A stretch of DNA of 64,000 nt from Escherichia phage PGN829.1, in sequence record NC_070871.1. One strand, written 5' to 3'. A program made the translations under genes and the position numbers. Positions 10,306 through 63,217 of this stretch are shown here, in pieces. Under the pieces are notes generated by a model that saw only the letters and a list, made by a program, of their open reading frames with translations, ran no database searches and was not told where the DNA came from. How positions within the stretch are numbered: the stretch's first letter is position 1; each line of letters opens with the position of its first letter.

Positions 10306-10689
10306 TTAGAAAGTCAGTTTACGAGCATATTTATTCTCGTCTGCTGGGATGTCAGCAGCCTCTGCTTTCACACGACGAAGTTGAACTTGCAGGTTAATGA
10401 TACCTTCTTCACCTGGTTCCAGGTTCTGAGCATATTCGATTAACTGTTCCAGCAAGTCGTTCTGTGCACAACGCATAGCACGGAAGTCAGCATTGCTGCT
10501 ATTAGTAGGCAGTGGTTCCTGAGTATCCAGCGGAATACCAGTAGGCAATGAGATGAATTTCTCATCATCAGAGCCTTCATTAGCTACATAACCAATGTTC
10601 AGCCAGAACTGAGCTTTAGGCTTATCAGCCTTAGCAGTAGAAGTAGCAGCAGCGTTAGATTGACCGAAAGTGAATTTTTGAATAGACAT
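10306..10689 (-). CDS. hypothetical protein
   Basis: Start moved to ATG at 10689 (MSIQKF) with GGAGAG RBS; the longer track ORF would swallow the promoter hairpin region. Confidence 0.4.
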
Positions 10690-10792
10690 TTTGTACTCTC
10701 CAGATTTATGTGATTTACGGGTGAACTCGTCGGTGAGAACACCCAAACAAAAGGATAAAAGTTCAATGATTAGTGGATGCATTTACATCATC

Positions 10793-10811
10793 CATAAGAC
10801 GCGGAGCGTCT
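10793..10811 (-). promoter_or_regulatory. candidate N4-type virion-RNAP hairpin promoter (P-b)
   Basis: Template strand CCATA-AGACGC-GGA-GCGTCT: 6-bp stem, GGA loop, G at -8, template C at predicted +1 (10793). Confidence 0.5.
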
Positions 10812-10816
10812 GGTTT

Positions 10817-11035
10817 TTAAGGCTCAAAGCCAGGTTGTAATTGATAAGGTAATTCAACAACTTTCCAGTATCTATCGTGATATTCTGGAGTGGATTCGTT
10901 GATAGCATCTGCAACCTTTTGTGCAGCTTCTTCACTGTGAAAGTAAGGGAGATTCTCTACGAATTTCTCGTCTGGATAATCCCCATCAAAGTTGTCTGTT
11001 TGTACGATTTTAAACTGAGGCATATCTATCTCCAA
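10817..11035 (-). CDS. acidic small protein (hypothetical)
   Basis: 72 aa, D/E-rich. Confidence 0.4.
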   Translation of the reverse strand: MEIDMPQFKIVQTDNFDGDYPDEKFVENLPYFHSEEAAQKVADAINESTPEYHDRYWKVVELPYQLQPGFEP

Positions 11036-20726: not shown

Positions 20727-22613
20727 ATGAACGAATTATTCTCACAAGGTGGTAAAGGCTCTACTGGTATTCTTACCAATAAACAAGCCATTGCCCGTAA
20801 GTTTGGTGTTAAGCAGAATGAAGTAGTCTACTTTTCTGTAGGTGTAGACTTGGGGGGTTACAAAGTCATTTATGACAAGACTACTCAGCGTGCTTACTCT
20901 TTGCCCGTACTCCCGGTAGGAACCACTGCTGTAAGCCTGAATGAACAAGCAATCCTGGTTCATTCAGCAGGTACTGTTGATTTGGGGGAACTTGGGAAAA
21001 GCAGGGGGGAGTATACTACCCTACCTGGCACGTTCTCCACCGGTTCCATAGTAAATACTAAGAATGACATACTCGTTTACAATGATACTGGATACACCTA
21101 CCAGGGTGCACTACCCGTTACTGTAGCTCCTGGATCATCCCCTGTTGGGGATGCTAATTGGGTTGCTATATCCGACGCATACCTGAAAGAGGAACTACTT
21201 AATAAGTATATACACTATGTTACCCCGCAAGTATTTGGTGCTATGGGGGATGGTGTTACTGATGATACTGAAGCCATTCAAGCAGCAATGGATTACTGTC
21301 AACTGAATCGAACTAAGTTGGTGATTCCATCCAAGAAGTACATTATTACTAAACCCTTGTTGTATCGCAATTTAGGCTTTTATAACTATGAAATTGAAGG
21401 ACAAGGTGGTAATGCAATTATTGAATTAACTACCTTAGCTAAGACAGGTATAACTGAGCCAGATGCTTACGGGGTGGATGTTAACGTAAATGCTGCTATT
21501 GTTGTATTAACAGATACTAATCAGAGTAAGTATGCTCGTATTTCAGGTATTCGCTTTACAACTACAGTCAATGCTGACTACGGTATCTATTTTAGTATAA
21601 CGGAGAACAGTTACGTATCAGATTGCCTCTTTGAAGGTTATAAGTTTGGTATATTTGATAAAGGTTCATGGATTCAACGTATATCCCGGTGTATTGCTCG
21701 TAACTGTACGGATACCGGGTTCTATATCCAAGACGGTACTAGTACCTACATAAAAGAATGCTATGTTGATTATGCTAATCGTGGTTACTACTTAGCTAGT
21801 GGCTATAGTTCGATTATTGATTGTGCATGCGACCATACTACCCGCTGGAGCTATGTATTTGGCGGTGGTTCCGGTGATAACGCTACTACAGATACCCGAA
21901 GCATTAGTATGCATAATTGTGGTTCTGAAAATACAGGAACGGGTTCTGCTATCTACATAGATGGTAGGGTTGCATTAGGTATTTCTAATTATCATGCGGG
22001 TAATTACCCTCCATACCAAACAGCCAATACCCCCTATCTTGTAGATGTTTCAAGTAAGGGTTCAGATTCTCAAATTACTATGAGTAATGTGCGATGTGTT
22101 AACTTCTCTTACCTTATTAATGATGCCAGCAGCTCTAATAACTATTTTGACCTTACTAACGTTACCTGTCGTAGTACATTAACTGGTAAATACAGTCTGG
22201 CTTCTGGAACCAGGGTACTAGAAAGAACCAAGGAAGGTGGTGTACGAATCATTACTAATACTGATTTAACTGGTATTGGTATTGTTGCTGGGGATATTGT
22301 GGACTCACTCTCCGATAACACCACTTTATCTGGTTTGCGTAATGGGCAATTCATCTATCGTAAGGGTATATCTATCACCCGCTCTACTGGTTCCGCTGGT
22401 AGTACTGAAGTAACACTACCTATTAACTTACTGGATTATCGTGTAGCCGTAACCTTTAATGGGGGTATTGGTGCATTGCAGAGTATTGCCCCTGTATTTA
22501 GCGTTACTAACCAAACCCCTTCTGGGTTTACGGTTAACTGCGCAAGTTCTCGTGGTGACGAAGCGTGGACTACATTAGGTGCAGATATTATTGTATATGG
22601 CTTGAAGCAGTAA
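20727..22613 (+). CDS. second tailspike with pectate-lyase-like beta-helix domain
   Basis: 628 aa; FGAMGDGVTDDTEAIQAAMDYC motif and beta-helix-like repeats (NCTDTGFYIQDG). Confidence 0.6.
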   Translation: MNELFSQGGKGSTGILTNKQAIARKFGVKQNEVVYFSVGVDLGGYKVIYDKTTQRAYSLPVLPVGTTAVSLNEQAILVHSAGTVDLGELGKSRGEYTTLPGTFSTGSIVNTKNDILVYNDTGYTYQGALPVTVAPGSSPVGDANWVAISDAYLKEELLNKYIHYVTPQVFGAMGDGVTDDTEAIQAAMDYCQLNRTKLVIPSKKYIITKPLLYRNLGFYNYEIEGQGGNAIIELTTLAKTGITEPDAYGVDVNVNAAIVVLTDTNQSKYARISGIRFTTTVNADYGIYFSITENSYVSDCLFEGYKFGIFDKGSWIQRISRCIARNCTDTGFYIQDGTSTYIKECYVDYANRGYYLASGYSSIIDCACDHTTRWSYVFGGGSGDNATTDTRSISMHNCGSENTGTGSAIYIDGRVALGISNYHAGNYPPYQTANTPYLVDVSSKGSDSQITMSNVRCVNFSYLINDASSSNNYFDLTNVTCRSTLTGKYSLASGTRVLERTKEGGVRIITNTDLTGIGIVAGDIVDSLSDNTTLSGLRNGQFIYRKGISITRSTGSAGSTEVTLPINLLDYRVAVTFNGGIGALQSIAPVFSVTNQTPSGFTVNCASSRGDEAWTTLGADIIVYGLKQ

Positions 22614-22618
22614 ATTTA

Positions 22619-22650
22619 GGTAGTGGGGTAAATTTAGTACCCCACTACCA
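22619..22650 (+). terminator. strong hairpin after tailspike gene (terminator-like)
   Basis: 12-bp perfect stem ggtagtggggta/taccccactacc, 7-nt loop; weak T tract. Confidence 0.35.
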
Positions 22651-22871
22651 AACCCATTAGTGTTTGCTGATTCCATTGCTCTAACTGTAAAAATGGTTAG
22701 GGTAACTCTCCCCCATAGGGTATTGAATATATCCAATGATGCCCTTTCTACAAAGCACAGGTTTTGCTCGTCTCTTTGTCTGGATGTATTTCAGCATACT
22801 AAGTATTATCTAAGAGTCATCTTATGATACGACCCCATTGGGGTTCCTAACTTCGTAACTACGGTAATAAT

Positions 22872-57599: not shown

Positions 57600-57904
57600 T
57601 ATTCCCCCTTGGGAATCATGTTTGCCCGGAACTTTGGTTCAGACATCAGACCCAGGTTGCTAAGAGACAGATAAACAATGTCTTTCAAGTCAACTGAGGT
57701 GTCGAAACGCTGATCCAGACTAATCTTCAGTGAGTGATTGGCACGAGCCAAATCTTTATAAGTCACGTAAGGTTCATCAGTGAGTAACATTGTATTCATG
57801 GTAAGCAGAGAGCCATCATCCACTTTAGGAAGCTGAAAGATTACCTGTGCTGCTACCATCCAATGATATTTTCTGACTACGGTTTCTTTAGTACTTTTAG
57901 TCAT
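57599..57904 (-). CDS. hypothetical protein
   Basis: 101-aa ORF in replication operon. Confidence 0.35.
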   Translation of the reverse strand: MTKSTKETVVRKYHWMVAAQVIFQLPKVDDGSLLTMNTMLLTDEPYVTYKDLARANHSLKISLDQRFDTSVDLKDIVYLSLSNLGLMSEPKFRANMIPKGE

Positions 57905-58896
57905 GCGAATGCCTTTTGAATTATTTGATGAACTTCTTCTGGGGTAGCGTGATTTGGAATTTCAATCTCGTTAGCCCACGTTGGGTAAAACAAGGATAGT
58001 TCCCCACCCAAACCAACTTCTGGATGAGCAATGTCAGGATGGTCTTGCCAGTTAACGGCTTCGACCAGATGCTTGTTCGTGTACTGCAAGGTATCCATAT
58101 TGTCACGAATCATGAAGTATTGGGCATCATGAATATGAATACAAGGACGTATATCTAACCTGAACTCACTGGCTCTGACTTTACGCATAAACTCTGAGCC
58201 AGCACGGTTATTCAGTAAACACCAGCTTTGGCCTAATGCATTACCAGCAGTTCTGCCTTCTGCTTCTGCTTCATATGGAGTCTTACATGTCCCACGTAAA
58301 ACCTGAGCCAGTAAAGGAGTACGGACTCTCAAACCAAATGCAGCAGTTACATAACCAGTCTTAGCAGCTTCGTCTAGCTTAGCCTGAACCCAGGCATCAC
58401 TAACCGTATACATTTCGTGGTATCTGGACTCAATTAATTTAGCCTTCTCTTCCGAGAAGCCACAGTTTTTCATTAAGCCCATATAAGTTCCGCCGTAGGT
58501 CAGTAAGAAAGTAGGTGCTTTCGATTCGCTACGTAAGGCTTTATATTTTTTCTGTATAGAGTTGATGCTTTCTACAGAGTCATCAATATCCGGCATTTGT
58601 TCACCGAAATAAAATTTAGCTCTGAGTGAATGACCGTCAAACCCGTCAGTATACACACGCAATTTATTAGGGTCTTTGGTTGTTAGGGCTGATATGCGAT
58701 CCTCTAAGGACGCAAAGTCTAGCCCACAAAACAACCATCCACCCTCATAGTCAAAGCATTCAGATACTTGTTCCTGCATGCCATATTTACTAGCTAATTG
58801 TATTAACTCGTCATAGTCATCCAGGGTTACTCTATCCTTTATGCTAACTAATTTATTTAATAAGTCCTGCATTACGAAGTACCTTCTCCTGTTCAA
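57901..58896 (-). CDS. family A DNA polymerase, C-terminal palm part (split gene)
   Basis: Pol A motif A GLDFASLEDRI, motif B RSESKAPTFLLTYGG, motif C IHIHDAQ. Confidence 0.75.
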   Translation of the reverse strand: MNRRRYFVMQDLLNKLVSIKDRVTLDDYDELIQLASKYGMQEQVSECFDYEGGWLFCGLDFASLEDRISALTTKDPNKLRVYTDGFDGHSLRAKFYFGEQMPDIDDSVESINSIQKKYKALRSESKAPTFLLTYGGTYMGLMKNCGFSEEKAKLIESRYHEMYTVSDAWVQAKLDEAAKTGYVTAAFGLRVRTPLLAQVLRGTCKTPYEAEAEGRTAGNALGQSWCLLNNRAGSEFMRKVRASEFRLDIRPCIHIHDAQYFMIRDNMDTLQYTNKHLVEAVNWQDHPDIAHPEVGLGGELSLFYPTWANEIEIPNHATPEEVHQIIQKAFA

Positions 58897-59509
58897 CCAA
58901 GTTATTAGCTAATACATAAGCAATAACTGCATTCATAACAGTATCTAGATCTCTATCTACCCGGATTTCTATTCTCTTACCCAAATGGGTAATTCTACCT
59001 ACCCATTTATTTTTTGACTTACTGTAGCTAACGTAAGGAGTTGTACTCCAAACCCTTTTGTTAGTTTGTTGGGTACTTCTATTTGCCCATCTACAGTTGT
59101 CTGGAGAATATCCTTTATAGGCATCAATCCTGTCGATACTAAGACCTGCTGCATAACCAGAAGATAATGCCCAATCTCGGAAAGTTTCGTATGAATTTTT
59201 CCACTCATCGCAAACACTTATGCCCTTAGCCCCATATTTGTAATAAGTGGAACACTTTTCATTATGGCAGCGGTCAAGGATGCCGTAGTAAACCTTATAT
59301 AGTAGTTCCTTAGAACGACCATCTTTATAGTTACGTAGGCATTCTTTGTGTAAACATCCACAACTTCTTGTATGACCACTCTTTAATTTTTGATTGTTGA
59401 CTATAGTAGTATTCCCACAGTCACAAAGGCATTCCCAATGCTTTGCATAGTATTTGTCTTTGTGACTGAACCTGACTACAGTCAATCTATTAAATTTCTT
59501 TCCTATCAT
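58853..59509 (-). CDS. HNH homing endonuclease interrupting the DNA polymerase gene
   Basis: Cys cluster CLCDCG...CGCLH, HNH-like IDRIDAYKGYSPDNCRWANRSTQQTN; overlaps both polymerase pieces. Confidence 0.7.
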   Translation of the reverse strand: MIGKKFNRLTVVRFSHKDKYYAKHWECLCDCGNTTIVNNQKLKSGHTRSCGCLHKECLRNYKDGRSKELLYKVYYGILDRCHNEKCSTYYKYGAKGISVCDEWKNSYETFRDWALSSGYAAGLSIDRIDAYKGYSPDNCRWANRSTQQTNKRVWSTTPYVSYSKSKNKWVGRITHLGKRIEIRVDRDLDTVMNAVIAYVLANNLVEQEKVLRNAGLIK

Positions 59510-61323
59510 TTGGCACCACTAATTGTATTTTTCAGGGACTGGATTAATGTATCCAGCTTGGTCCTGTTTGGCAAGTAACAACTAGGTGGAGCTTCGAAGC
59601 ATTTCTTAATCTTCTTGGCATATTTAGAGCCGGATGGAATTGTTTGTAGATTTGGCTCTGAAGCCGATAACCTACCGGAGACTGTGCCTCCCAGATTGAG
59701 GTTACCGAACAGGTAGTGCCAGCCATCCGGTCCCGGTTGGGCATTCCTGAAAGCTGGTATAAAGCTAGTGATAATCTTATCCACGAGCTTATAGTCGATA
59801 AGTGCATTGAGCAGTTCCTTAACATCTTCACTCTGCGTATGTGTACGCAGTGCTTTAATAGTGTCACCGTCAGTAGTAGGTTGCTTGCTCTTAGTAAGAC
59901 CAAGAACTGGTAAGCCAATATAATCAAATAACAGTTTCTGTAATTGTGGACCGGAGTTAGGATTAAACTGGATGTCACAATCAGCCAGTGTTACCTGCTT
60001 CTTCTTAAGCTTAGCATTCTTATCGTCTACCCATTCCTGACGAAGCATCAGGGTAAAGTTCTTCATGAGATTAGACTCACGAATAGTTTTCAGAGCCTGG
60101 TTCCTGTCAGTTTCCATTTCTTCAGCTACTTGGTTAACGGTTTCCATATTCATGGGCATACCGGTTAACTGCATCTGAATAATGTCTTCACAGGCTGGTT
60201 TAAAGATGTTGTTGTAAACATCTAGTTGGTCATCGGCAATGAGAGTATCCCAGTGCTTCTCATAAGTGTACCAAGTACACAATCCATCAATGAGGTTGTA
60301 GCGTAACAATTGCTCATTGGGTATAAGACGTATGTCTTTAATATCATCCTGAGCATAGTTACCAGCATATTCCTGAGCCTGGTCTTTCAGACTAAGATGA
60401 TTGCCTGCACAACTGTTAGTAGCCAGATAGGTGATTAACTTAGTACAGTCCCAATTACGCAGCATGATGTCCATGCCATGTAGTAGTCCCTCTGTATCAA
60501 TCAGATTATCCATGAATAACTGATAGATAAGTATGTACACATCATAGCTAATATTGTGATACATCTGCCGTTGGGTGTACTTAATGAAGAACTCACGCAG
60601 AAGGTTTCGAACAATATCATTACGGTTGATACGCCCGTATGGTGCTTCAGTAGCTCCAGGAATCGGCTCGTAGTCCACGTTAAAGGCTATGCCTTGTGTT
60701 TTACTCCAACAGAATGTAATTGTCCCTATACCGGCGTTATAGTGCTTTAAACCGAATGCTTCGATGTCTATAGCCAATGGCTTATTCATCTCAAGCAACT
60801 GGTCTAGCCAGGCTTTAATCTTCTCGGGAGTATCCGGATAGGCTTCAAACTCAATGATTCCTTGACCTGGTTCAGCATACTGCCCACGTATGTGGTTAAG
60901 TAATGCATCCATACCCTGAGCAATCTTGGATTTCACTACAGGAGGGTCATAAAAGACCTGTCTGTAGCTAGGTGCATAGATAACCTTCTGCTTACCCCAT
61001 ACTGAGTCACAAACATAGCCGAGGTTAGCCTCTGCTTTAGCTTCTTTAGTCAGTATTTTGAAGTAGTCAGAATCGGTACAGATAATGTATTGAGTCTCTG
61101 CATCATCCAGTACTTGTTGCAGTTCCTGCTGTATGAACTCCTTAATCTCTCTTGCAGGAGTTTTCTTCTTGCCGGGGGCAGAATGAAGTTCAATAAAGAT
61201 GAAGTCTTCCATACTTAGGTCATAAGGCAGCAGATAGGTTTTAATCATCTCCTCCCTTCGGATTTGATGACCGAGGATAGCAATAGGATACTTACCAGTA
61301 TCCTGAGAGGTGATGTAACGCAT
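59506..61323 (-). CDS. family A DNA polymerase, N-terminal 3'-5' exonuclease and thumb part (split gene)
   Basis: Exo motifs (AIDIEAFG; YNLIDGLCTWYTY), Pol A SGRLSASEPNLQTIP ... IKKCF, then the frame diverges and stops. Confidence 0.75.
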   Translation of the reverse strand: MRYITSQDTGKYPIAILGHQIRREEMIKTYLLPYDLSMEDFIFIELHSAPGKKKTPAREIKEFIQQELQQVLDDAETQYIICTDSDYFKILTKEAKAEANLGYVCDSVWGKQKVIYAPSYRQVFYDPPVVKSKIAQGMDALLNHIRGQYAEPGQGIIEFEAYPDTPEKIKAWLDQLLEMNKPLAIDIEAFGLKHYNAGIGTITFCWSKTQGIAFNVDYEPIPGATEAPYGRINRNDIVRNLLREFFIKYTQRQMYHNISYDVYILIYQLFMDNLIDTEGLLHGMDIMLRNWDCTKLITYLATNSCAGNHLSLKDQAQEYAGNYAQDDIKDIRLIPNEQLLRYNLIDGLCTWYTYEKHWDTLIADDQLDVYNNIFKPACEDIIQMQLTGMPMNMETVNQVAEEMETDRNQALKTIRESNLMKNFTLMLRQEWVDDKNAKLKKKQVTLADCDIQFNPNSGPQLQKLLFDYIGLPVLGLTKSKQPTTDGDTIKALRTHTQSEDVKELLNALIDYKLVDKIITSFIPAFRNAQPGPDGWHYLFGNLNLGGTVSGRLSASEPNLQTIPSGSKYAKKIKKCFEAPPSCYLPNRTKLDTLIQSLKNTISGAK

Positions 61324-61873: not shown

Positions 61874-63184
61874 TTAGAAAGTTAGACCACCGTACTTACT
61901 GGCAAGATTGCCATAGAACACTACACGCTTACGAGCACGAGACACAGCGACGTAAAGCAGACGGGCAACCATATCTGGTTGGCGACAGCTTGAGAGGTCA
62001 TTTGCATCAATGAAGATTGTGTCATAAGTAGAGCCTTGTGATTTATGGACAGTACATGCATGAGTAGCACGTAGGTCTGGAATGGTTTCTTTAAGACGGA
62101 AATAAGGTTCCCAGTTTTTCTCTTTACCTAACCACTTAACCAAACGGTTGAAGTAGTCTGGGTCAGTAGGAACTGGAACTTCACTTACAATGCCACCATA
62201 ACCGAGGTCAAGAGTACTATCACGAACTTCCAGTTCCAGGTCACCTGTAACTTTAATCATGCGAGTACTGCTATCCTGGTCGATGAGTTTTACGTCCTGC
62301 TCAATAGACAAACGGTCTTCCACACCCAGGCGAACAGCAGAGTTAGATACCAGCTGCTCGCCGATGGAGTACTCACCTACATAGCCGTTAGCCTCACGAA
62401 TGTAGTTATTGTAATTAATAACCTGGTCATTTGTGTAAGCAACAATACGGCTGTTGGTAGGTTGAGTGAAGTGACTGAGAACCAATTTCTCCATCTCTTC
62501 CTCCTGTACCCAGTCAATGATACCTGGGATACATTTAATTGGCAGGAAGCCTGTCTTACCTTCCACCGTATCACGCAATTGCTGGTGCAATGCTTTAAGT
62601 TCCGGTGCATCAGTACGCATCTGTTCAGTCAGATAGTGTGTTGGGATATTACCTGCATATACCGGAGACTTATTCTCTTTAACGGGCAGTAGCTGAGAAG
62701 CATCGCCTACAAATACCAGTTTGCACTGGTGAGTACCTTCACGAGCATACTTAAGTAACTGACGATCAATCATGGATGCTTCGTCTACGAAGATAATCTT
62801 GTTCTTCTTAATGTTGAATGATTTAGATGGCACTACGTTAGCCTCACCAGTCTTAAAATCATTCTTAACAATCAGACCCTGGAAGGAGTGATAGGTAGAT
62901 GTTGGACGTCCTGTAGCTTGAGCCAGTACTTCAGCAGCTTTGTTCGTGGTTGCAGTCATGACAACTTCGTTATACAGGGGCTTGGTTCCCATCAAAGAAC
63001 AAGTTTCCATGTATGCAGGCATAGTGTCATCAATGAGGTGCGACATCAGGAATGTCTTACCAGTTCCCCCTGGGCCACTAATATTGAATTCGGTAGCATT
63101 AGGGTCGAGCAGGAAGTCGAAGAACTCCTTCGCAACCGCTTCTTGCCCCTGGTTCAGTGGGGCTTTGGTAGGTTTGGAAAACAT
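61874..63184 (-). CDS. SF1 DNA helicase (Dda/RecD-like)
   Basis: Walker A GPGGTGKT, Walker B FVDEASM, C-terminal VAVSRARKRVVFYG. Confidence 0.7.
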   Translation of the reverse strand: MFSKPTKAPLNQGQEAVAKEFFDFLLDPNATEFNISGPGGTGKTFLMSHLIDDTMPAYMETCSLMGTKPLYNEVVMTATTNKAAEVLAQATGRPTSTYHSFQGLIVKNDFKTGEANVVPSKSFNIKKNKIIFVDEASMIDRQLLKYAREGTHQCKLVFVGDASQLLPVKENKSPVYAGNIPTHYLTEQMRTDAPELKALHQQLRDTVEGKTGFLPIKCIPGIIDWVQEEEMEKLVLSHFTQPTNSRIVAYTNDQVINYNNYIREANGYVGEYSIGEQLVSNSAVRLGVEDRLSIEQDVKLIDQDSSTRMIKVTGDLELEVRDSTLDLGYGGIVSEVPVPTDPDYFNRLVKWLGKEKNWEPYFRLKETIPDLRATHACTVHKSQGSTYDTIFIDANDLSSCRQPDMVARLLYVAVSRARKRVVFYGNLASKYGGLTF

Positions 63185-63217
63185 TTAAATCTCCAGTAAA
63201 AAACCCTCTGTAGAGGG

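What the first reader, a model, noticed from the sequence alone, without database searches (positions are those of the whole stretch)
57901..61323. Family A DNA polymerase gene split in two by an HNH homing endonuclease
The 605-aa ORF carries the 3'-5' exonuclease motifs and Pol A SGRLSASEPNLQTIP...IKKCF, then drifts and stops. The 331-aa ORF downstream carries motifs A (GLDFASLEDRI), B (K...YG) and C (HD). The 218-aa HNH ORF lies between them and overlaps both. The break falls inside the conserved R-x-A/C-F region just before motif A (CFEAPP in piece 1, CFDYEGGW in piece 2), which is a typical homing target. Either a self-splicing intron or intein restores one polypeptide, or the polymerase works as two chains.
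Basis: seen in the sequence. Interest (0 to 1): 0.6.

Follow-up and report, generated by a model that had tools for sequence, protein, structure and literature searches.

The report
Phage DNA polymerase split by endonuclease cassette
In this N4-like coliphage an 843-base mobile cassette carrying an HNH homing endonuclease gene sits seven codons before the catalytic aspartate of the DNA polymerase gene, and the sequence evidence indicates that the polymerase is made as two separate proteins that must reassemble, not repaired by an intron or intein.

Summary
On the minus strand there are three ORFs. ORF 59506-61323 (605 aa) is the N-terminal part of a family A polymerase. ORF 58853-59509 (218 aa) is an HNH-type endonuclease. 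ORF 57901-58872 (323 aa from the conserved ATG) carries motifs A, B and C. Close relatives have one uninterrupted 2580-bp gene. The difference is an exact 843-bp insert (59583-58741) between ...KKCFEAPP and GW(L/I)FCGLDF.

The insert is a discrete mobile cassette. It is 85-98% identical to a metagenomic copy whose flanking polymerase is only about 50-70% identical.

No group I or II intron signature is found, although a positive control (the PhAPEC5 polymerase intron) is detected. Seven divergent cassettes share no RNA structure. Intein features are absent.

The cassette contributes a 25-aa tail to piece 1 and a 44-aa helical N-terminal extension to piece 2. The extension keeps its own Shine-Dalgarno sequence and ATG, and it evolves under purifying selection as protein. 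The same tail-HNH-extension layout at the same site recurs in very divergent N4-like metagenomic phages.

Best reading: a free-standing homing endonuclease has made a genes-in-pieces, two-chain polymerase (confidence about 0.75). This is a new variant of a known kind and is moderately interesting.

The parts
59584..61323 (-). Polymerase piece 1, canonical part (580 aa). It contains 3'-5' exonuclease-like motifs, the thumb, and the motif SGRLSASEPNLQTIP...IKKCFEAPP.
   Evidence: Pfam PF00476 positions 11-150. phrog_17 covers residues 6-582. Residues 437-580 align to Taq polymerase residues 469-601. Colinear with the intact ECBP1, UE-S5a and Mimir124 genes.
58741..59583 (-). The 843-bp mobile cassette, absent from intact relatives. 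It comprises the tail codons, the HNH gene and the extension codons.
   Evidence: Exact gap against the 2580-bp intact genes. Identity to metagenomic contig L037 jumps from about 50-70% in the flanks to 85-98% exactly inside these bounds.
59506..59583 (-). Cassette-encoded 25-aa C-terminal tail of piece 1 (SCYLPNRTKLDTLIQSLKNTISGAK) plus the TGA stop.
   Evidence: The ORF is kept in all copies. Related tails occur in divergent cassettes (...NLRNLIQTLKQTLDGAA...NMLQTFILELKQSLKGA). Protein-level constraint is weak to moderate.
58853..59509 (-). HNH-type homing endonuclease gene (218 aa). It has an N-terminal Cys-rich region, the motif GLSIDRID..GYSPDNCRW..QQTN, and an AP2-like C-terminal part. 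Its ATG overlaps the piece 1 stop (ATGA).
   Evidence: phrog_374 E=3e-63. 56 of 80 variable sites are at third codon positions. 93% identical to the copy in a divergent polymerase. Weak PacI-like match over the nuclease motif.
58882..58890 (-). Shine-Dalgarno-like AGGAGAAGG, 9 nt upstream of the piece 2 ATG. It lies inside the 3' end of the HNH ORF.
   Evidence: Read from the sequence. Invariant in the close copies. AAAGGT or GAAGG occurs at the same position in L048, L040, L042 and L036.
58741..58872 (-). Cassette-encoded 44-aa N-terminal extension of piece 2 (MQDLLNKLVSIKDRVTLDDYDELIQLASKYGMQEQVSECFDYEG).
   Evidence: Purifying selection as protein: pS 0.35 against pN 0.055 versus L037; pS 0.95 against pN 0.29 versus L036; pS 0.55 against pN 0.11 for L048 versus L040. 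Predicted as three helices with pLDDT 74-87. Homologous extensions occur in P0082, P0085, P0113, P0162 and P0141.
57901..58740 (-). Polymerase piece 2, canonical part, from GW through motifs A (Asp52), B (Lys118...Tyr126-Gly) and C (His248-Asp249) to the stop codon.
   Evidence: Pfam PF00476 positions 137-341. Invariant columns. AlphaFold model pLDDT 91.6, matching Taq, Klenow and Bst palm and fingers.
59513..59592 (-). Predicted RNA stem pairing the exon-cassette junction (GCUCCACCU|AGUUGU, 59592-59578) with the HNH ribosome-binding region (ACAAUUAGUGGUGC, 59526-59513). It encloses a 6-bp hairpin at 59539-59556.
   Evidence: MFE fold of the window copy. The outer stem recurs in the folds of G17, ST4 and L037. 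A U-A to C-G change occurs at the junction pair across six copies. The z-score is only -1.3, and the covariation could be haplotype linkage. Not seen in the divergent cassettes.

Best explanation
A free-standing HNH homing-endonuclease gene, carried on an 843-bp cassette, has homed into the polymerase gene between codons ...CFEAPP and GW..., seven residues before the motif A catalytic aspartate.

The cassette supplies everything needed to keep two separate cistrons translatable. It adds 25 codons and a stop that end piece 1. The HNH ORF follows, with its start coupled to that stop (ATGA). Inside the HNH 3' end lie a Shine-Dalgarno sequence and an ATG that open a 44-codon helical extension running in frame into the rest of the polymerase.

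The phage therefore makes a 69-kDa chain (exonuclease, thumb and DNA-binding motif) and a 37-kDa chain (motif A palm strand, fingers, motif C). These must associate non-covalently to form the active polymerase, as in the genes-in-pieces enzymes of T4-like phages.

The endonuclease presumably cuts or nicks cassette-free polymerase alleles during co-infection. Recombinational repair then copies the cassette in.

Shown here: the anatomy, the cassette boundaries, horizontal transfer, the lack of intron and intein features, and protein-level selection on the extension.

Inferred: separate translation, assembly of the two chains, a role for the extension and perhaps the tail in folding or docking, and endonuclease activity and target.
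For: (1) The 843-bp insertion is precise relative to intact 2580-bp genes in close relatives.

(2) The cassette is a discrete mobile unit. Against contig L037, the polymerase flanks are about 50-70% identical and the cassette is 85-98% identical, with sharp edges at the insertion boundaries. A recombination breakpoint lies at the cassette: the window is 97-100% identical to UE-S5a over the roughly 270 nt up to about 30 nt before the junction, and about 63% identical just downstream.

(3) No intron signal. Rfam finds nothing at gathering threshold or at E<=10, nor in five related loci. The PhAPEC5 polymerase intron gives RF00028 at 38 bits, E=7e-8, under the same settings. RNAalifold over seven divergent cassettes gives -0.5 kcal/mol, meaning no shared structure. 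The last exon base is U in three copies and C in three.

(4) The extension behaves as a protein. Its ATG and Shine-Dalgarno sequence are conserved. pS far exceeds pN in comparisons with the cassette copies that differ at enough sites to be informative. 11 of 18 variable flank sites are at third codon positions (p=0.014). It is predicted helical with pLDDT 74-87.

(5) The same site and the same layout (tail, same-clade HNH, extension) occur in polymerases only 35-54% identical to this one in piece 1 and 61-71% in the core of piece 2: L040, L041, L042, L044 and L048. In L041 the HNH gene has decayed to 83 codons, yet the tail and extension ORFs are intact.

(6) The polymerase-inserted HNH proteins are reciprocal best hits of one another among 50,697 phage records.

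(7) There is precedent. Homing-endonuclease insertions split Aeh1 nrdA, T4 topoisomerase and phage 25 gp43 into chains that reassemble into active enzymes (PMC2988022).
Against: There are no expression data. Neither separate translation nor assembly has been observed.

Rfam's group I model is known to miss divergent introns, and a novel ribozyme class cannot be excluded by homology searches.

The insert length is a multiple of three, and its edges are as sharp as those of a mobile intron.

A boundary shifted by one Gly codon would give a 5' exon ending in U (in three of six copies) and an insert ending in G, as in group I introns.

The break lies in the catalytic palm, only seven residues from the metal-binding Asp, which is a demanding place for non-covalent reassembly.

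Both pieces carry a CF....(GW)-type segment, so which copy occupies the native position is unknown.

Selection on the 25-aa tail is weak and partly confounded by the HNH ribosome-binding site and a possible RNA stem.
Confidence: 0.75

Rival explanations
1. The 843-bp insert is a self-splicing intron, either a divergent group I intron or an unrecognised ribozyme, that carries the HNH gene. Splicing restores one mRNA and a single 98-kDa polymerase, and the tail and extension reading frames are incidental.
For: HNH-bearing group I introns do interrupt family A polymerase genes. The sister phage PhAPEC5 has one 60 nt upstream, and the literature describes others in SPO1, T7-like phages and Pf-WMP3 (PMC3428280, listed). 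The insert has sharp mobile-unit boundaries. Its removal restores the exact PPGW junction in frame. A stem pairs the 5' junction with downstream cassette sequence.
Against: No RF00028 or group II hit even at E<=10 on a 1.4-kb stretch, while the control intron scores E=7e-8. No structure is conserved across seven cassettes. The junction base pairs U-A or C-G, not the U.G wobble, and is C in half the copies. Only 74 and 112 nt lie outside the HNH ORF. The 3' flank evolves under codon-level purifying selection in frame with exon 2 and keeps its own Shine-Dalgarno sequence and ATG over deep divergence. That is unexplained if the flank is removed from the mRNA.
Confidence: 0.12
2. The tail and extension are the halves of a split intein flanking a free-standing endonuclease gene (the 'fractured gene' arrangement). 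Protein trans-splicing then ligates the two polymerase pieces.
For: The gene order (N-piece plus extra peptide, endonuclease gene, extra peptide plus C-piece) is the one described for fractured genes (PMC2677866, listed). The 44-aa extension is about the size of a C-intein.
Against: The first tail residue is S, A or G across cassettes, so no nucleophile is conserved. The extension does not end in His-Asn or Asn. The +1 residue is always Gly rather than Cys, Ser or Thr. The 25 + 44 residues are about half of a minimal Hint fold. The extension is predicted as three alpha-helices, whereas Hint domains are all-beta.
Confidence: 0.01
3. The two-chain arrangement is right, but the tail and extension are neutral baggage left over from the insertion event. 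They play no part in folding or assembly.
For: The tail shows only weak constraint. Its 3' end doubles as the HNH ribosome-binding site. The C-terminal part of the extension looks like a diverged duplicate of the native segment SKYAKKIKKCFEAPP (shuffle p 0.0005-0.05), as a duplication remnant would.
Against: The extension is kept at 44-55 aa, with conserved amphipathic spacing and pN well below pS, across cassettes whose HNH proteins are only 39-54% identical. It is also kept where the HNH gene has decayed.
Confidence: 0.1

Closest known systems
Genes-in-pieces enzymes made by free-standing homing endonuclease insertion in T4-like phages: Aeh1 nrdA split by HNH mobE, T4 topoisomerase gp39/gp60 with mobA, and phage 25 PolB gp43A/43B with a seg gene (PMC2988022)
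   Same: An endonuclease gene with its own translation signals sits inside an essential replication gene that is intact in relatives. The two resulting cistrons are colinear with the intact protein. In those published cases the chains reassemble into active enzyme.
   Different: Here the host gene is a family A polymerase of an N4-like podovirus, and the break is seven residues before the catalytic Asp. The mobile unit itself encodes a conserved tail and a 44-aa extension. The same cassette type at the same site is spread over very divergent polymerases. Function of the split enzyme is untested.
HNH-encoding group I introns in family A polymerase genes: PhAPEC5 in the same genus; Pf-WMP3 I-PfoP3I (PMC3428280); SPO1 I-HmuI and the T7-like phage introns (from my own knowledge)
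   Same: An HNH gene interrupts a conserved stretch of the polymerase domain. It shows presence/absence polymorphism among close relatives, and its likely spread is by homing.
   Different: The PhAPEC5 insert lies at SASEP|NLQTIP and is detected as a group I intron. The window's insert lies 20 codons further downstream, gives no intron signal, shares no structure with its relatives, and has flanks that evolve as protein.
Fractured genes: split inteins flanking a free-standing endonuclease gene (PMC2677866)
   Same: Identical gene order, found in phage-like replication genes, with extra peptides at the broken ends.
   Different: No intein catalytic residues, the +1 residue is Gly, the flanks are too short and helical, and the endonuclease is HNH/AP2-like rather than the family described there.
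N4-like Vibrio phages JA1 and VchO139-I, whose polymerase, gp24 and gp43 homologues are split by HNH genes (PMC3670811)
   Same: The same virus family and the same kind of event. The authors suggested introns but did not test this.
   Different: The insertion site and HNH relationship were not compared here. Among isolates, only U1G, phi G17 and ST4 carry an HNH closely related to this one; the next best match in any phage record is about 40% identical.

Membership tests
Family A DNA polymerase (both pieces together) | Pfam DNA_pol_A domain with motif A Asp, motif B Lys...Tyr-Gly and motif C His-Asp | tested here: met
   PF00476 positions 11-150 are on piece 1 and 137-341 on piece 2. Asp52, Lys118, Tyr126, His248 and Asp249 are invariant or nearly so in 73 homologues. 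The piece 2 model matches Taq, Klenow and Bst.
Group I self-splicing intron | Conserved catalytic core (P3-P9) recognisable by a covariance model | tested here: not met
   No RF00028 hit at gathering threshold or at E<=10. The positive control, the PhAPEC5 intron, scores 38 bits with E=7e-8. Related loci are also negative.
Group I self-splicing intron | The 5' exon ends in U, wobble-paired to G in P1, and the intron ends in G | tested here: not met
   The last exon base is U in the window, U1G and L037, and C in G17, ST4 and L038. In the predicted stem it pairs with A or G by Watson-Crick pairing, not as a U.G wobble. The insert, as defined by intact genes, ends in U, A or G. A terminal G needs a boundary shifted by one Gly codon.
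Group I self-splicing intron | RNA secondary structure conserved with covariation among homologous introns | tested here: not met
   RNAalifold on the 3' third of seven cassettes gives a consensus energy of -0.5 kcal/mol and only three short helices.
Group I self-splicing intron | Splicing of the transcript | not testable with these tools
   Needs RT-PCR or RNA-seq of infected cells, or in vitro splicing.
Group II intron | Domain V/VI RNA and a reverse-transcriptase/maturase ORF | tested here: not met
   No Rfam group II hit. The only ORF is a 218-aa HNH-type protein.
Intein or split intein (fractured gene) | An in-frame insertion without stops, or split halves with an N-terminal Cys/Ser, a C-terminal (His-)Asn and a +1 Cys/Ser/Thr, together forming a Hint fold of about 130 aa | tested here: not met
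   The piece 1 frame stops at 59506-59508 and the HNH gene is in another frame. The first tail residue is S, A or G, and the +1 residue is Gly in all cassettes. The flanks total 69 aa and the extension is helical.
Free-standing homing endonuclease creating a genes-in-pieces enzyme | Endonuclease ORF with its own start between two cistrons colinear with an intact homologue; precise presence/absence among relatives | tested here: met
Free-standing homing endonuclease creating a genes-in-pieces enzyme | Independent translation signals for the downstream cistron, conserved in evolution | tested here: met
   A Shine-Dalgarno-like element 7-10 nt before a conserved ATG in the window, G17, ST4, L037, L048, L040, L042 and L036.
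Free-standing homing endonuclease creating a genes-in-pieces enzyme | Evidence of horizontal mobility of the endonuclease unit | tested here: met
   The cassette is 85-98% identical to the L037 copy, against about 50-70% for the flanking polymerase. A recombination breakpoint lies at the cassette.
Free-standing homing endonuclease creating a genes-in-pieces enzyme | The two polypeptides are made and assemble into active enzyme; the endonuclease cleaves the cassette-free allele | not testable with these tools
   Needs proteomics, co-purification, activity assays and cleavage assays.
HNH (beta-beta-alpha-metal) endonuclease | Match to a curated HNH model and the catalytic His...Asn...His/Asn motif | tested here: inconclusive
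   No Pfam or NCBIfam HNH hit. PHROG HNH families match strongly (phrog_374 3e-63, phrog_3377 1e-37). The motif reads GLSIDRID..GYSPDNCRW..QQTN, with Arg where the first His is expected. It aligns weakly to the HNH restriction enzyme PacI (3ldy, E=0.13).

The most novel reading that the evidence does not exclude
The homing endonuclease travels with a built-in gene-splitting kit. This comprises a short tail for the upstream fragment and a roughly 45-aa helical extension for the downstream fragment, which includes a surrogate copy of the helix that precedes the motif A strand. The kit would let a family A polymerase cut seven residues before its catalytic aspartate fold and dock as two chains. 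This would be a third, protein-level way, besides introns and inteins, for a selfish endonuclease gene to neutralise the cost of sitting in an essential gene. It has persisted at this one site across deeply divergent N4-like phages, even after the endonuclease itself decays.
Probability: 0.35. Interest if true: 0.7.

Novelty: new variant of a known kind. Interest (0 to 1): 0.5.

Why it matters
Homing endonucleases in essential genes are normally made harmless by a ribozyme (intron) or a protein-splicing domain (intein). A few T4-like cases show that simply splitting the enzyme can also work.

This locus would extend that to a family A polymerase broken next to its active site, in easily grown coliphages (U1G, phi G17, ST4 and this one). 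Natural intact controls exist in the same genus.

The cassette-borne extension is conserved across very divergent phages. That makes a concrete question testable: how do fragments of a replicative polymerase find each other, and did the selfish element evolve the peptide that makes this possible?

There is also a practical point. Annotation pipelines and polymerase-based phylogenies of Schitoviridae will mis-handle these two- and three-piece genes.

Tried and rejected
(1) Frameshift or assembly artefact. Rejected: the same three ORFs occur in three isolates and several metagenome assemblies, with substitutions but no indels.

(2) Intron. Tested with Rfam in two modes, a positive control and RNAalifold. 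All were negative.

(3) Intein or split intein. Rejected on residues, size and predicted helices.

(4) Looking for a donor. IMG/VR holds no HNH more than 53% identical and no copy of the extension. One metagenome scan found only another Gamaleyavirus copy. Among the 50,697 phage records the extension aligns over its whole length only in the split phages U1G, phi G17 and ST4. The source of the extension remains unknown.

(5) Is the extension a duplicate of the native upstream segment? Smith-Waterman scores against shuffles give p=0.0005-0.05 for many pairings, but some are not significant. At the DNA level the result is not significant. The idea is suggestive only.

(6) Modelling the tail-extension contact with a linker fusion.

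(7) Promoter and terminator scan. Promoter-like sites did not exceed the shuffle expectation (10 against 11.0), and terminator-like sites were only marginally above it (5 against 2.7, sd 1.8).

(8) Literature on U1G and ST4. Neither paper discusses the split polymerase.

Full report
**What is in the window.** All genes here are on the minus strand. The mechanical ORF list gives three ORFs. The first is 59506..61323 (605 aa), the second is 58853..59509 (218 aa), and the third is 57901..58896 (331 aa from a TTG, or 323 aa from the ATG at 58872).

- Pfam places DNA_pol_A profile positions 11-150 of 381 on the first ORF (E=4e-18) and positions 137-341 on the third (E=1.5e-15). They are two halves of one domain.
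- PHROG polymerase families match both pieces. The middle ORF matches PHROG HNH families (phrog_374, E=3e-63), but it has no Pfam or NCBIfam HNH hit.
- The piece 1 stop overlaps the HNH start (ATGA).
- The piece 2 ATG lies 20 nt inside the HNH 3' end, 9 nt after AGGAGAAGG.
- No tRNA genes and no Rfam family at gathering threshold occur anywhere in the window.

**Where it comes from, and the exact insertion.** The region is 98.7% identical to Escherichia phage U1G, 92.9% to phi G17 and 91.2% to ST4. These are Gamaleyavirus, N4-like Schitoviridae.

- Those three phages have the same three ORFs, annotated as DNA polymerase I / HNH / DNA polymerase I.
- About 45 further records of the genus match in two blocks that span a single 2580-bp polymerase gene.
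- Alignment defines an 843-bp insert, window 59583..58741, between ...AAATGCTTCGAAGCTCCACCT and GGATGGTTG. In protein terms this is between ...KKCFEAPP and GW(L/I)FCGLDF.
- Piece 1 residues 437-580 align to Taq polymerase up to about residue 601.
- The break is therefore seven residues before the motif A aspartate (Asp52 of piece 2, invariant in 73 homologues).
- The finding is real and is not a sequencing artefact.

**The insert is a discrete mobile cassette.** A protein search with the start of piece 2 led to metagenomic contig L037.

- L037 is a much more distant N4-like phage, with piece 1 54% identical at the protein level.
- In a nucleotide identity profile, the window and L037 are about 50-70% identical along the polymerase.
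- They are 85-98% identical exactly between the two insertion boundaries.
- Within the genus, the window is 97-100% identical to cassette-free UE-S5a over the roughly 270 nt up to about 30 nt before the junction, and about 63% identical just after it. A recombination breakpoint therefore sits at the cassette.
- These are the marks of homing with exchange of flanking markers.
- The HNH ORF is under purifying selection, with 56 of 80 variable sites at third codon positions.

**Intron?** Rfam searched permissively (E<=10) on 58500-59900 gives only three chance-level hits on the other strand.

- The same search on the PhAPEC5 polymerase insert detects a group I intron at 38 bits, E=7e-8. That insert is annotated as a 672-bp intron at SASEP|NLQTIP.
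- Five related metagenomic loci also give nothing.
- RNAalifold on the 3' third of seven divergent cassettes gives a consensus energy of -0.5 kcal/mol. No catalytic core is shared.
- The base before the insert is U in three copies and C in three. In the predicted local stem it forms U-A or C-G, not the U.G wobble of a group I P1.
- Only 74 and 112 nt lie outside the HNH ORF.

**Intein?** The piece 1 frame runs into a stop, and the HNH gene is in another frame. As a split intein the flanks fail every defining feature.

- The first tail residue is S, A or G.
- There is no terminal Asn.
- The +1 residue is always Gly.
- The flanks total 25 + 44 residues.
- The extension is predicted to be helical.

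**The flanks are protein.** The cassette gives piece 1 a 25-aa tail (SCYLPNRTKLDTLIQSLKNTISGAK). It gives piece 2 a 44-aa extension (MQDLLNKLVSIKDRVTLDDYDELIQLASKYGMQEQVSECFDYEG).

- Among the close copies, 11 of 18 variable flank sites are at third codon positions (p=0.014).
- For the extension, synonymous differences far exceed non-synonymous ones:

| Comparison | pS | pN |
|---|---|---|
| window vs L037 | 0.35 | 0.055 |
| window vs L036 | 0.95 | 0.29 |
| L048 vs L040 | 0.55 | 0.11 |

- The tail is less constrained (pS 0.45-0.89, pN 0.35-0.39). Its last codons double as the HNH ribosome-binding site.
- An AlphaFold model of piece 2 (73-sequence alignment, mean pLDDT 91.6) shows the extension as three helices (residues 2-10, 17-29 and 33-37; pLDDT 74-87). 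These lead into the motif A strand.
- The rest of the model matches the palm and fingers of Taq, Klenow, Bst and Pol theta.

**The arrangement is old and widespread.** A search with the whole of piece 2 returned many C-terminal polymerase pieces of about 330 aa with N-terminal extensions. One cluster (P0073) holds 131 member sequences.

- Their contigs (L040, L041, L042, L044, L048) share the same layout. The break follows ...CF.AP(P/E/K). An 18-25 aa tail follows the break. An HNH of the same family follows the tail. A 44-55 aa extension ends in ...(C/S/V)(F/V).(Y/Q)(E/D/G).GW.
- The gene overlaps are similar, for example 4 nt and 29 nt in L048.
- These polymerases are only 35-54% (piece 1) and 61-71% (piece 2 core) identical to the window's.
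- In L041 the HNH gene has decayed to 83 codons, but the tail and extension ORFs persist.
- The polymerase-inserted HNH proteins are each other's best hits among 50,697 phage records. The endonuclease lineage is therefore tied to this site.
- The C-terminal part of the extension (…SKYG..…ECF.YE.GW) resembles the native segment that it duplicates (…SKYAKKIKKCFEAPPGW). Shuffle p-values are 0.0005-0.05 for many pairings but not all. This is suggestive only.
- Among phage isolates the extension aligns over its whole length only in the split phages. The motif scans of IMG/VR and the metagenome contigs found it only in one further split copy.

**Most likely mechanism.** A free-standing homing endonuclease has made a genes-in-pieces polymerase.

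- Chain 1 is 69.3 kDa and carries the exonuclease, the thumb and the DNA-binding motif SGRLS..PNLQTIP.
- Chain 2 is 36.7 kDa and carries motif A, the fingers with motif B, and motif C.
- Each chain is translated from its own start and the two associate non-covalently.
- The extension, and perhaps the tail, would help piece 2 fold or dock. This step is inferred.
- Published precedents are Aeh1 NrdA/mobE, T4 gp39/gp60/mobA and phage 25 gp43A/B, where the split chains assemble into active enzymes (PMC2988022).
- N4-like Vibrio phages with a polymerase split by HNH genes have been reported, with an intron suggested but not tested (PMC3670811).
- I put the two-chain reading at about 0.75, an undetected ribozyme at about 0.12 and a split intein at about 0.01.

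**The endonuclease.** The protein has three recognisable parts.

- An N-terminal Cys-rich region (C..C.C.CG...H..SCGC).
- A central motif, GL(S/T)IDR..(x5)..YSP.NCRW...Q..N, conserved in the whole clade.
- An AP2-like C-terminal region.

Arg occupies the position of the first HNH histidine. The motif aligns weakly (E=0.13) to the HNH restriction enzyme PacI. From my own recollection of the PacI structure paper, a tyrosine is proposed there to start cleavage. Membership of the HNH superfamily is therefore probable but was not shown by a curated model. Activity and target are untested.

**Novelty and verdict.** The three-ORF arrangement is already annotated in GenBank for U1G, phi G17 and ST4. 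The papers I could read on U1G and ST4 do not discuss it.

- The kind (an endonuclease-split essential gene) is known.
- The variant is new in three respects. The split gene is a family A polymerase, broken next to its active site. The cassette carries its own conserved coding tail and extension. The cassette recurs at one site across divergent Schitoviridae.
- It matters mainly as a tractable system for asking how a split polymerase reassembles.
- Interest is 0.5. All functional claims await RT-PCR, proteomics and co-expression.

Noticed in passing
L037:5001-6700, L036:275-1728, L039:28-1694 (metagenomic relatives, not in the window): These polymerases are in three pieces. After the same cassette, a second HNH_3-type gene (179-180 aa) sits after ...TKDPNKLKVY. 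That leaves a 116-118 aa middle piece with its own roughly 43-aa tail, and a third piece with a roughly 29-aa extension (MQLFETLQKSTLDIPAGAIVTVKRVGNTP|GYDGH). Many short middle pieces (P0005, P0007, P0010, P0015, P0026) suggest multiply fragmented N4-like polymerases are common.
   Followed up: partly
L040:2466-3364: This contig combines the window-type cassette with another HNH_3 gene inserted at SSSKPNL|, the site of the PhAPEC5 group I intron. Rfam finds no intron there, even on an 1.8-kb stretch. The exon between the two inserts was not called as a gene.
   Followed up: partly
L003:3204-3831 (Escherichia phage PhAPEC5): The 672-bp insert annotated as an intron in the sister phage's polymerase gene matches Rfam group I intron RF00028 at 38 bits (below the gathering score of 50), E=7e-8. 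The core overlaps the 3' end of its HNH ORF. One genus therefore holds two different solutions to an endonuclease gene in the polymerase gene, 20 codons apart.
   Followed up: partly
window 59513-59592 (-): A predicted stem pairs the exon-cassette junction with the HNH ribosome-binding region and encloses a 6-bp hairpin (59539-59556). The junction pair is U-A in three copies and C-G in three. It might throttle HNH translation as in T4 and Aeh1 endonuclease genes. Alternatively it may reflect the complementarity of Pro-Pro codons CCACC to a GGUGG Shine-Dalgarno sequence, plus haplotype linkage.
   Followed up: partly
window 57901-61323 compared with L046 (UE-S5a), L047 (Mimir124) and L001 (ECBP1): Gamaleyavirus polymerase genes are mosaics. 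The window is 97-100% identical to UE-S5a over the roughly 270 nt up to about 30 nt before the cassette site, but only about 63% for several hundred nt after it, where it is closer to ECBP1. The first roughly 65 nt after the cassette are shared by the window, G17 and L038 and differ from all cassette-free genes. This is a candidate co-conversion tract.
   Followed up: partly
window 311/312 and 63148-63215: Two HNH genes present in the 95-97% identical phage U1G are absent here. One is gp27 (U1G 10313-10882), which splits an ATPase gene into gp26 and gp28 and is annotated 'Phage intron'. The other is gp45 (22280-22777), upstream of the helicase. In the window the ATPase gene appears uninterrupted and runs off the left end. 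Endonuclease gene content differs even between near-identical phages.
   Followed up: partly
L041:3535-4000: In one divergent relative the polymerase-inserted HNH gene is reduced to an 83-codon remnant ending at ...YTPNNCR*, followed by 214 nt without a called gene. The tail and the extension reading frames remain intact.
   Followed up: no
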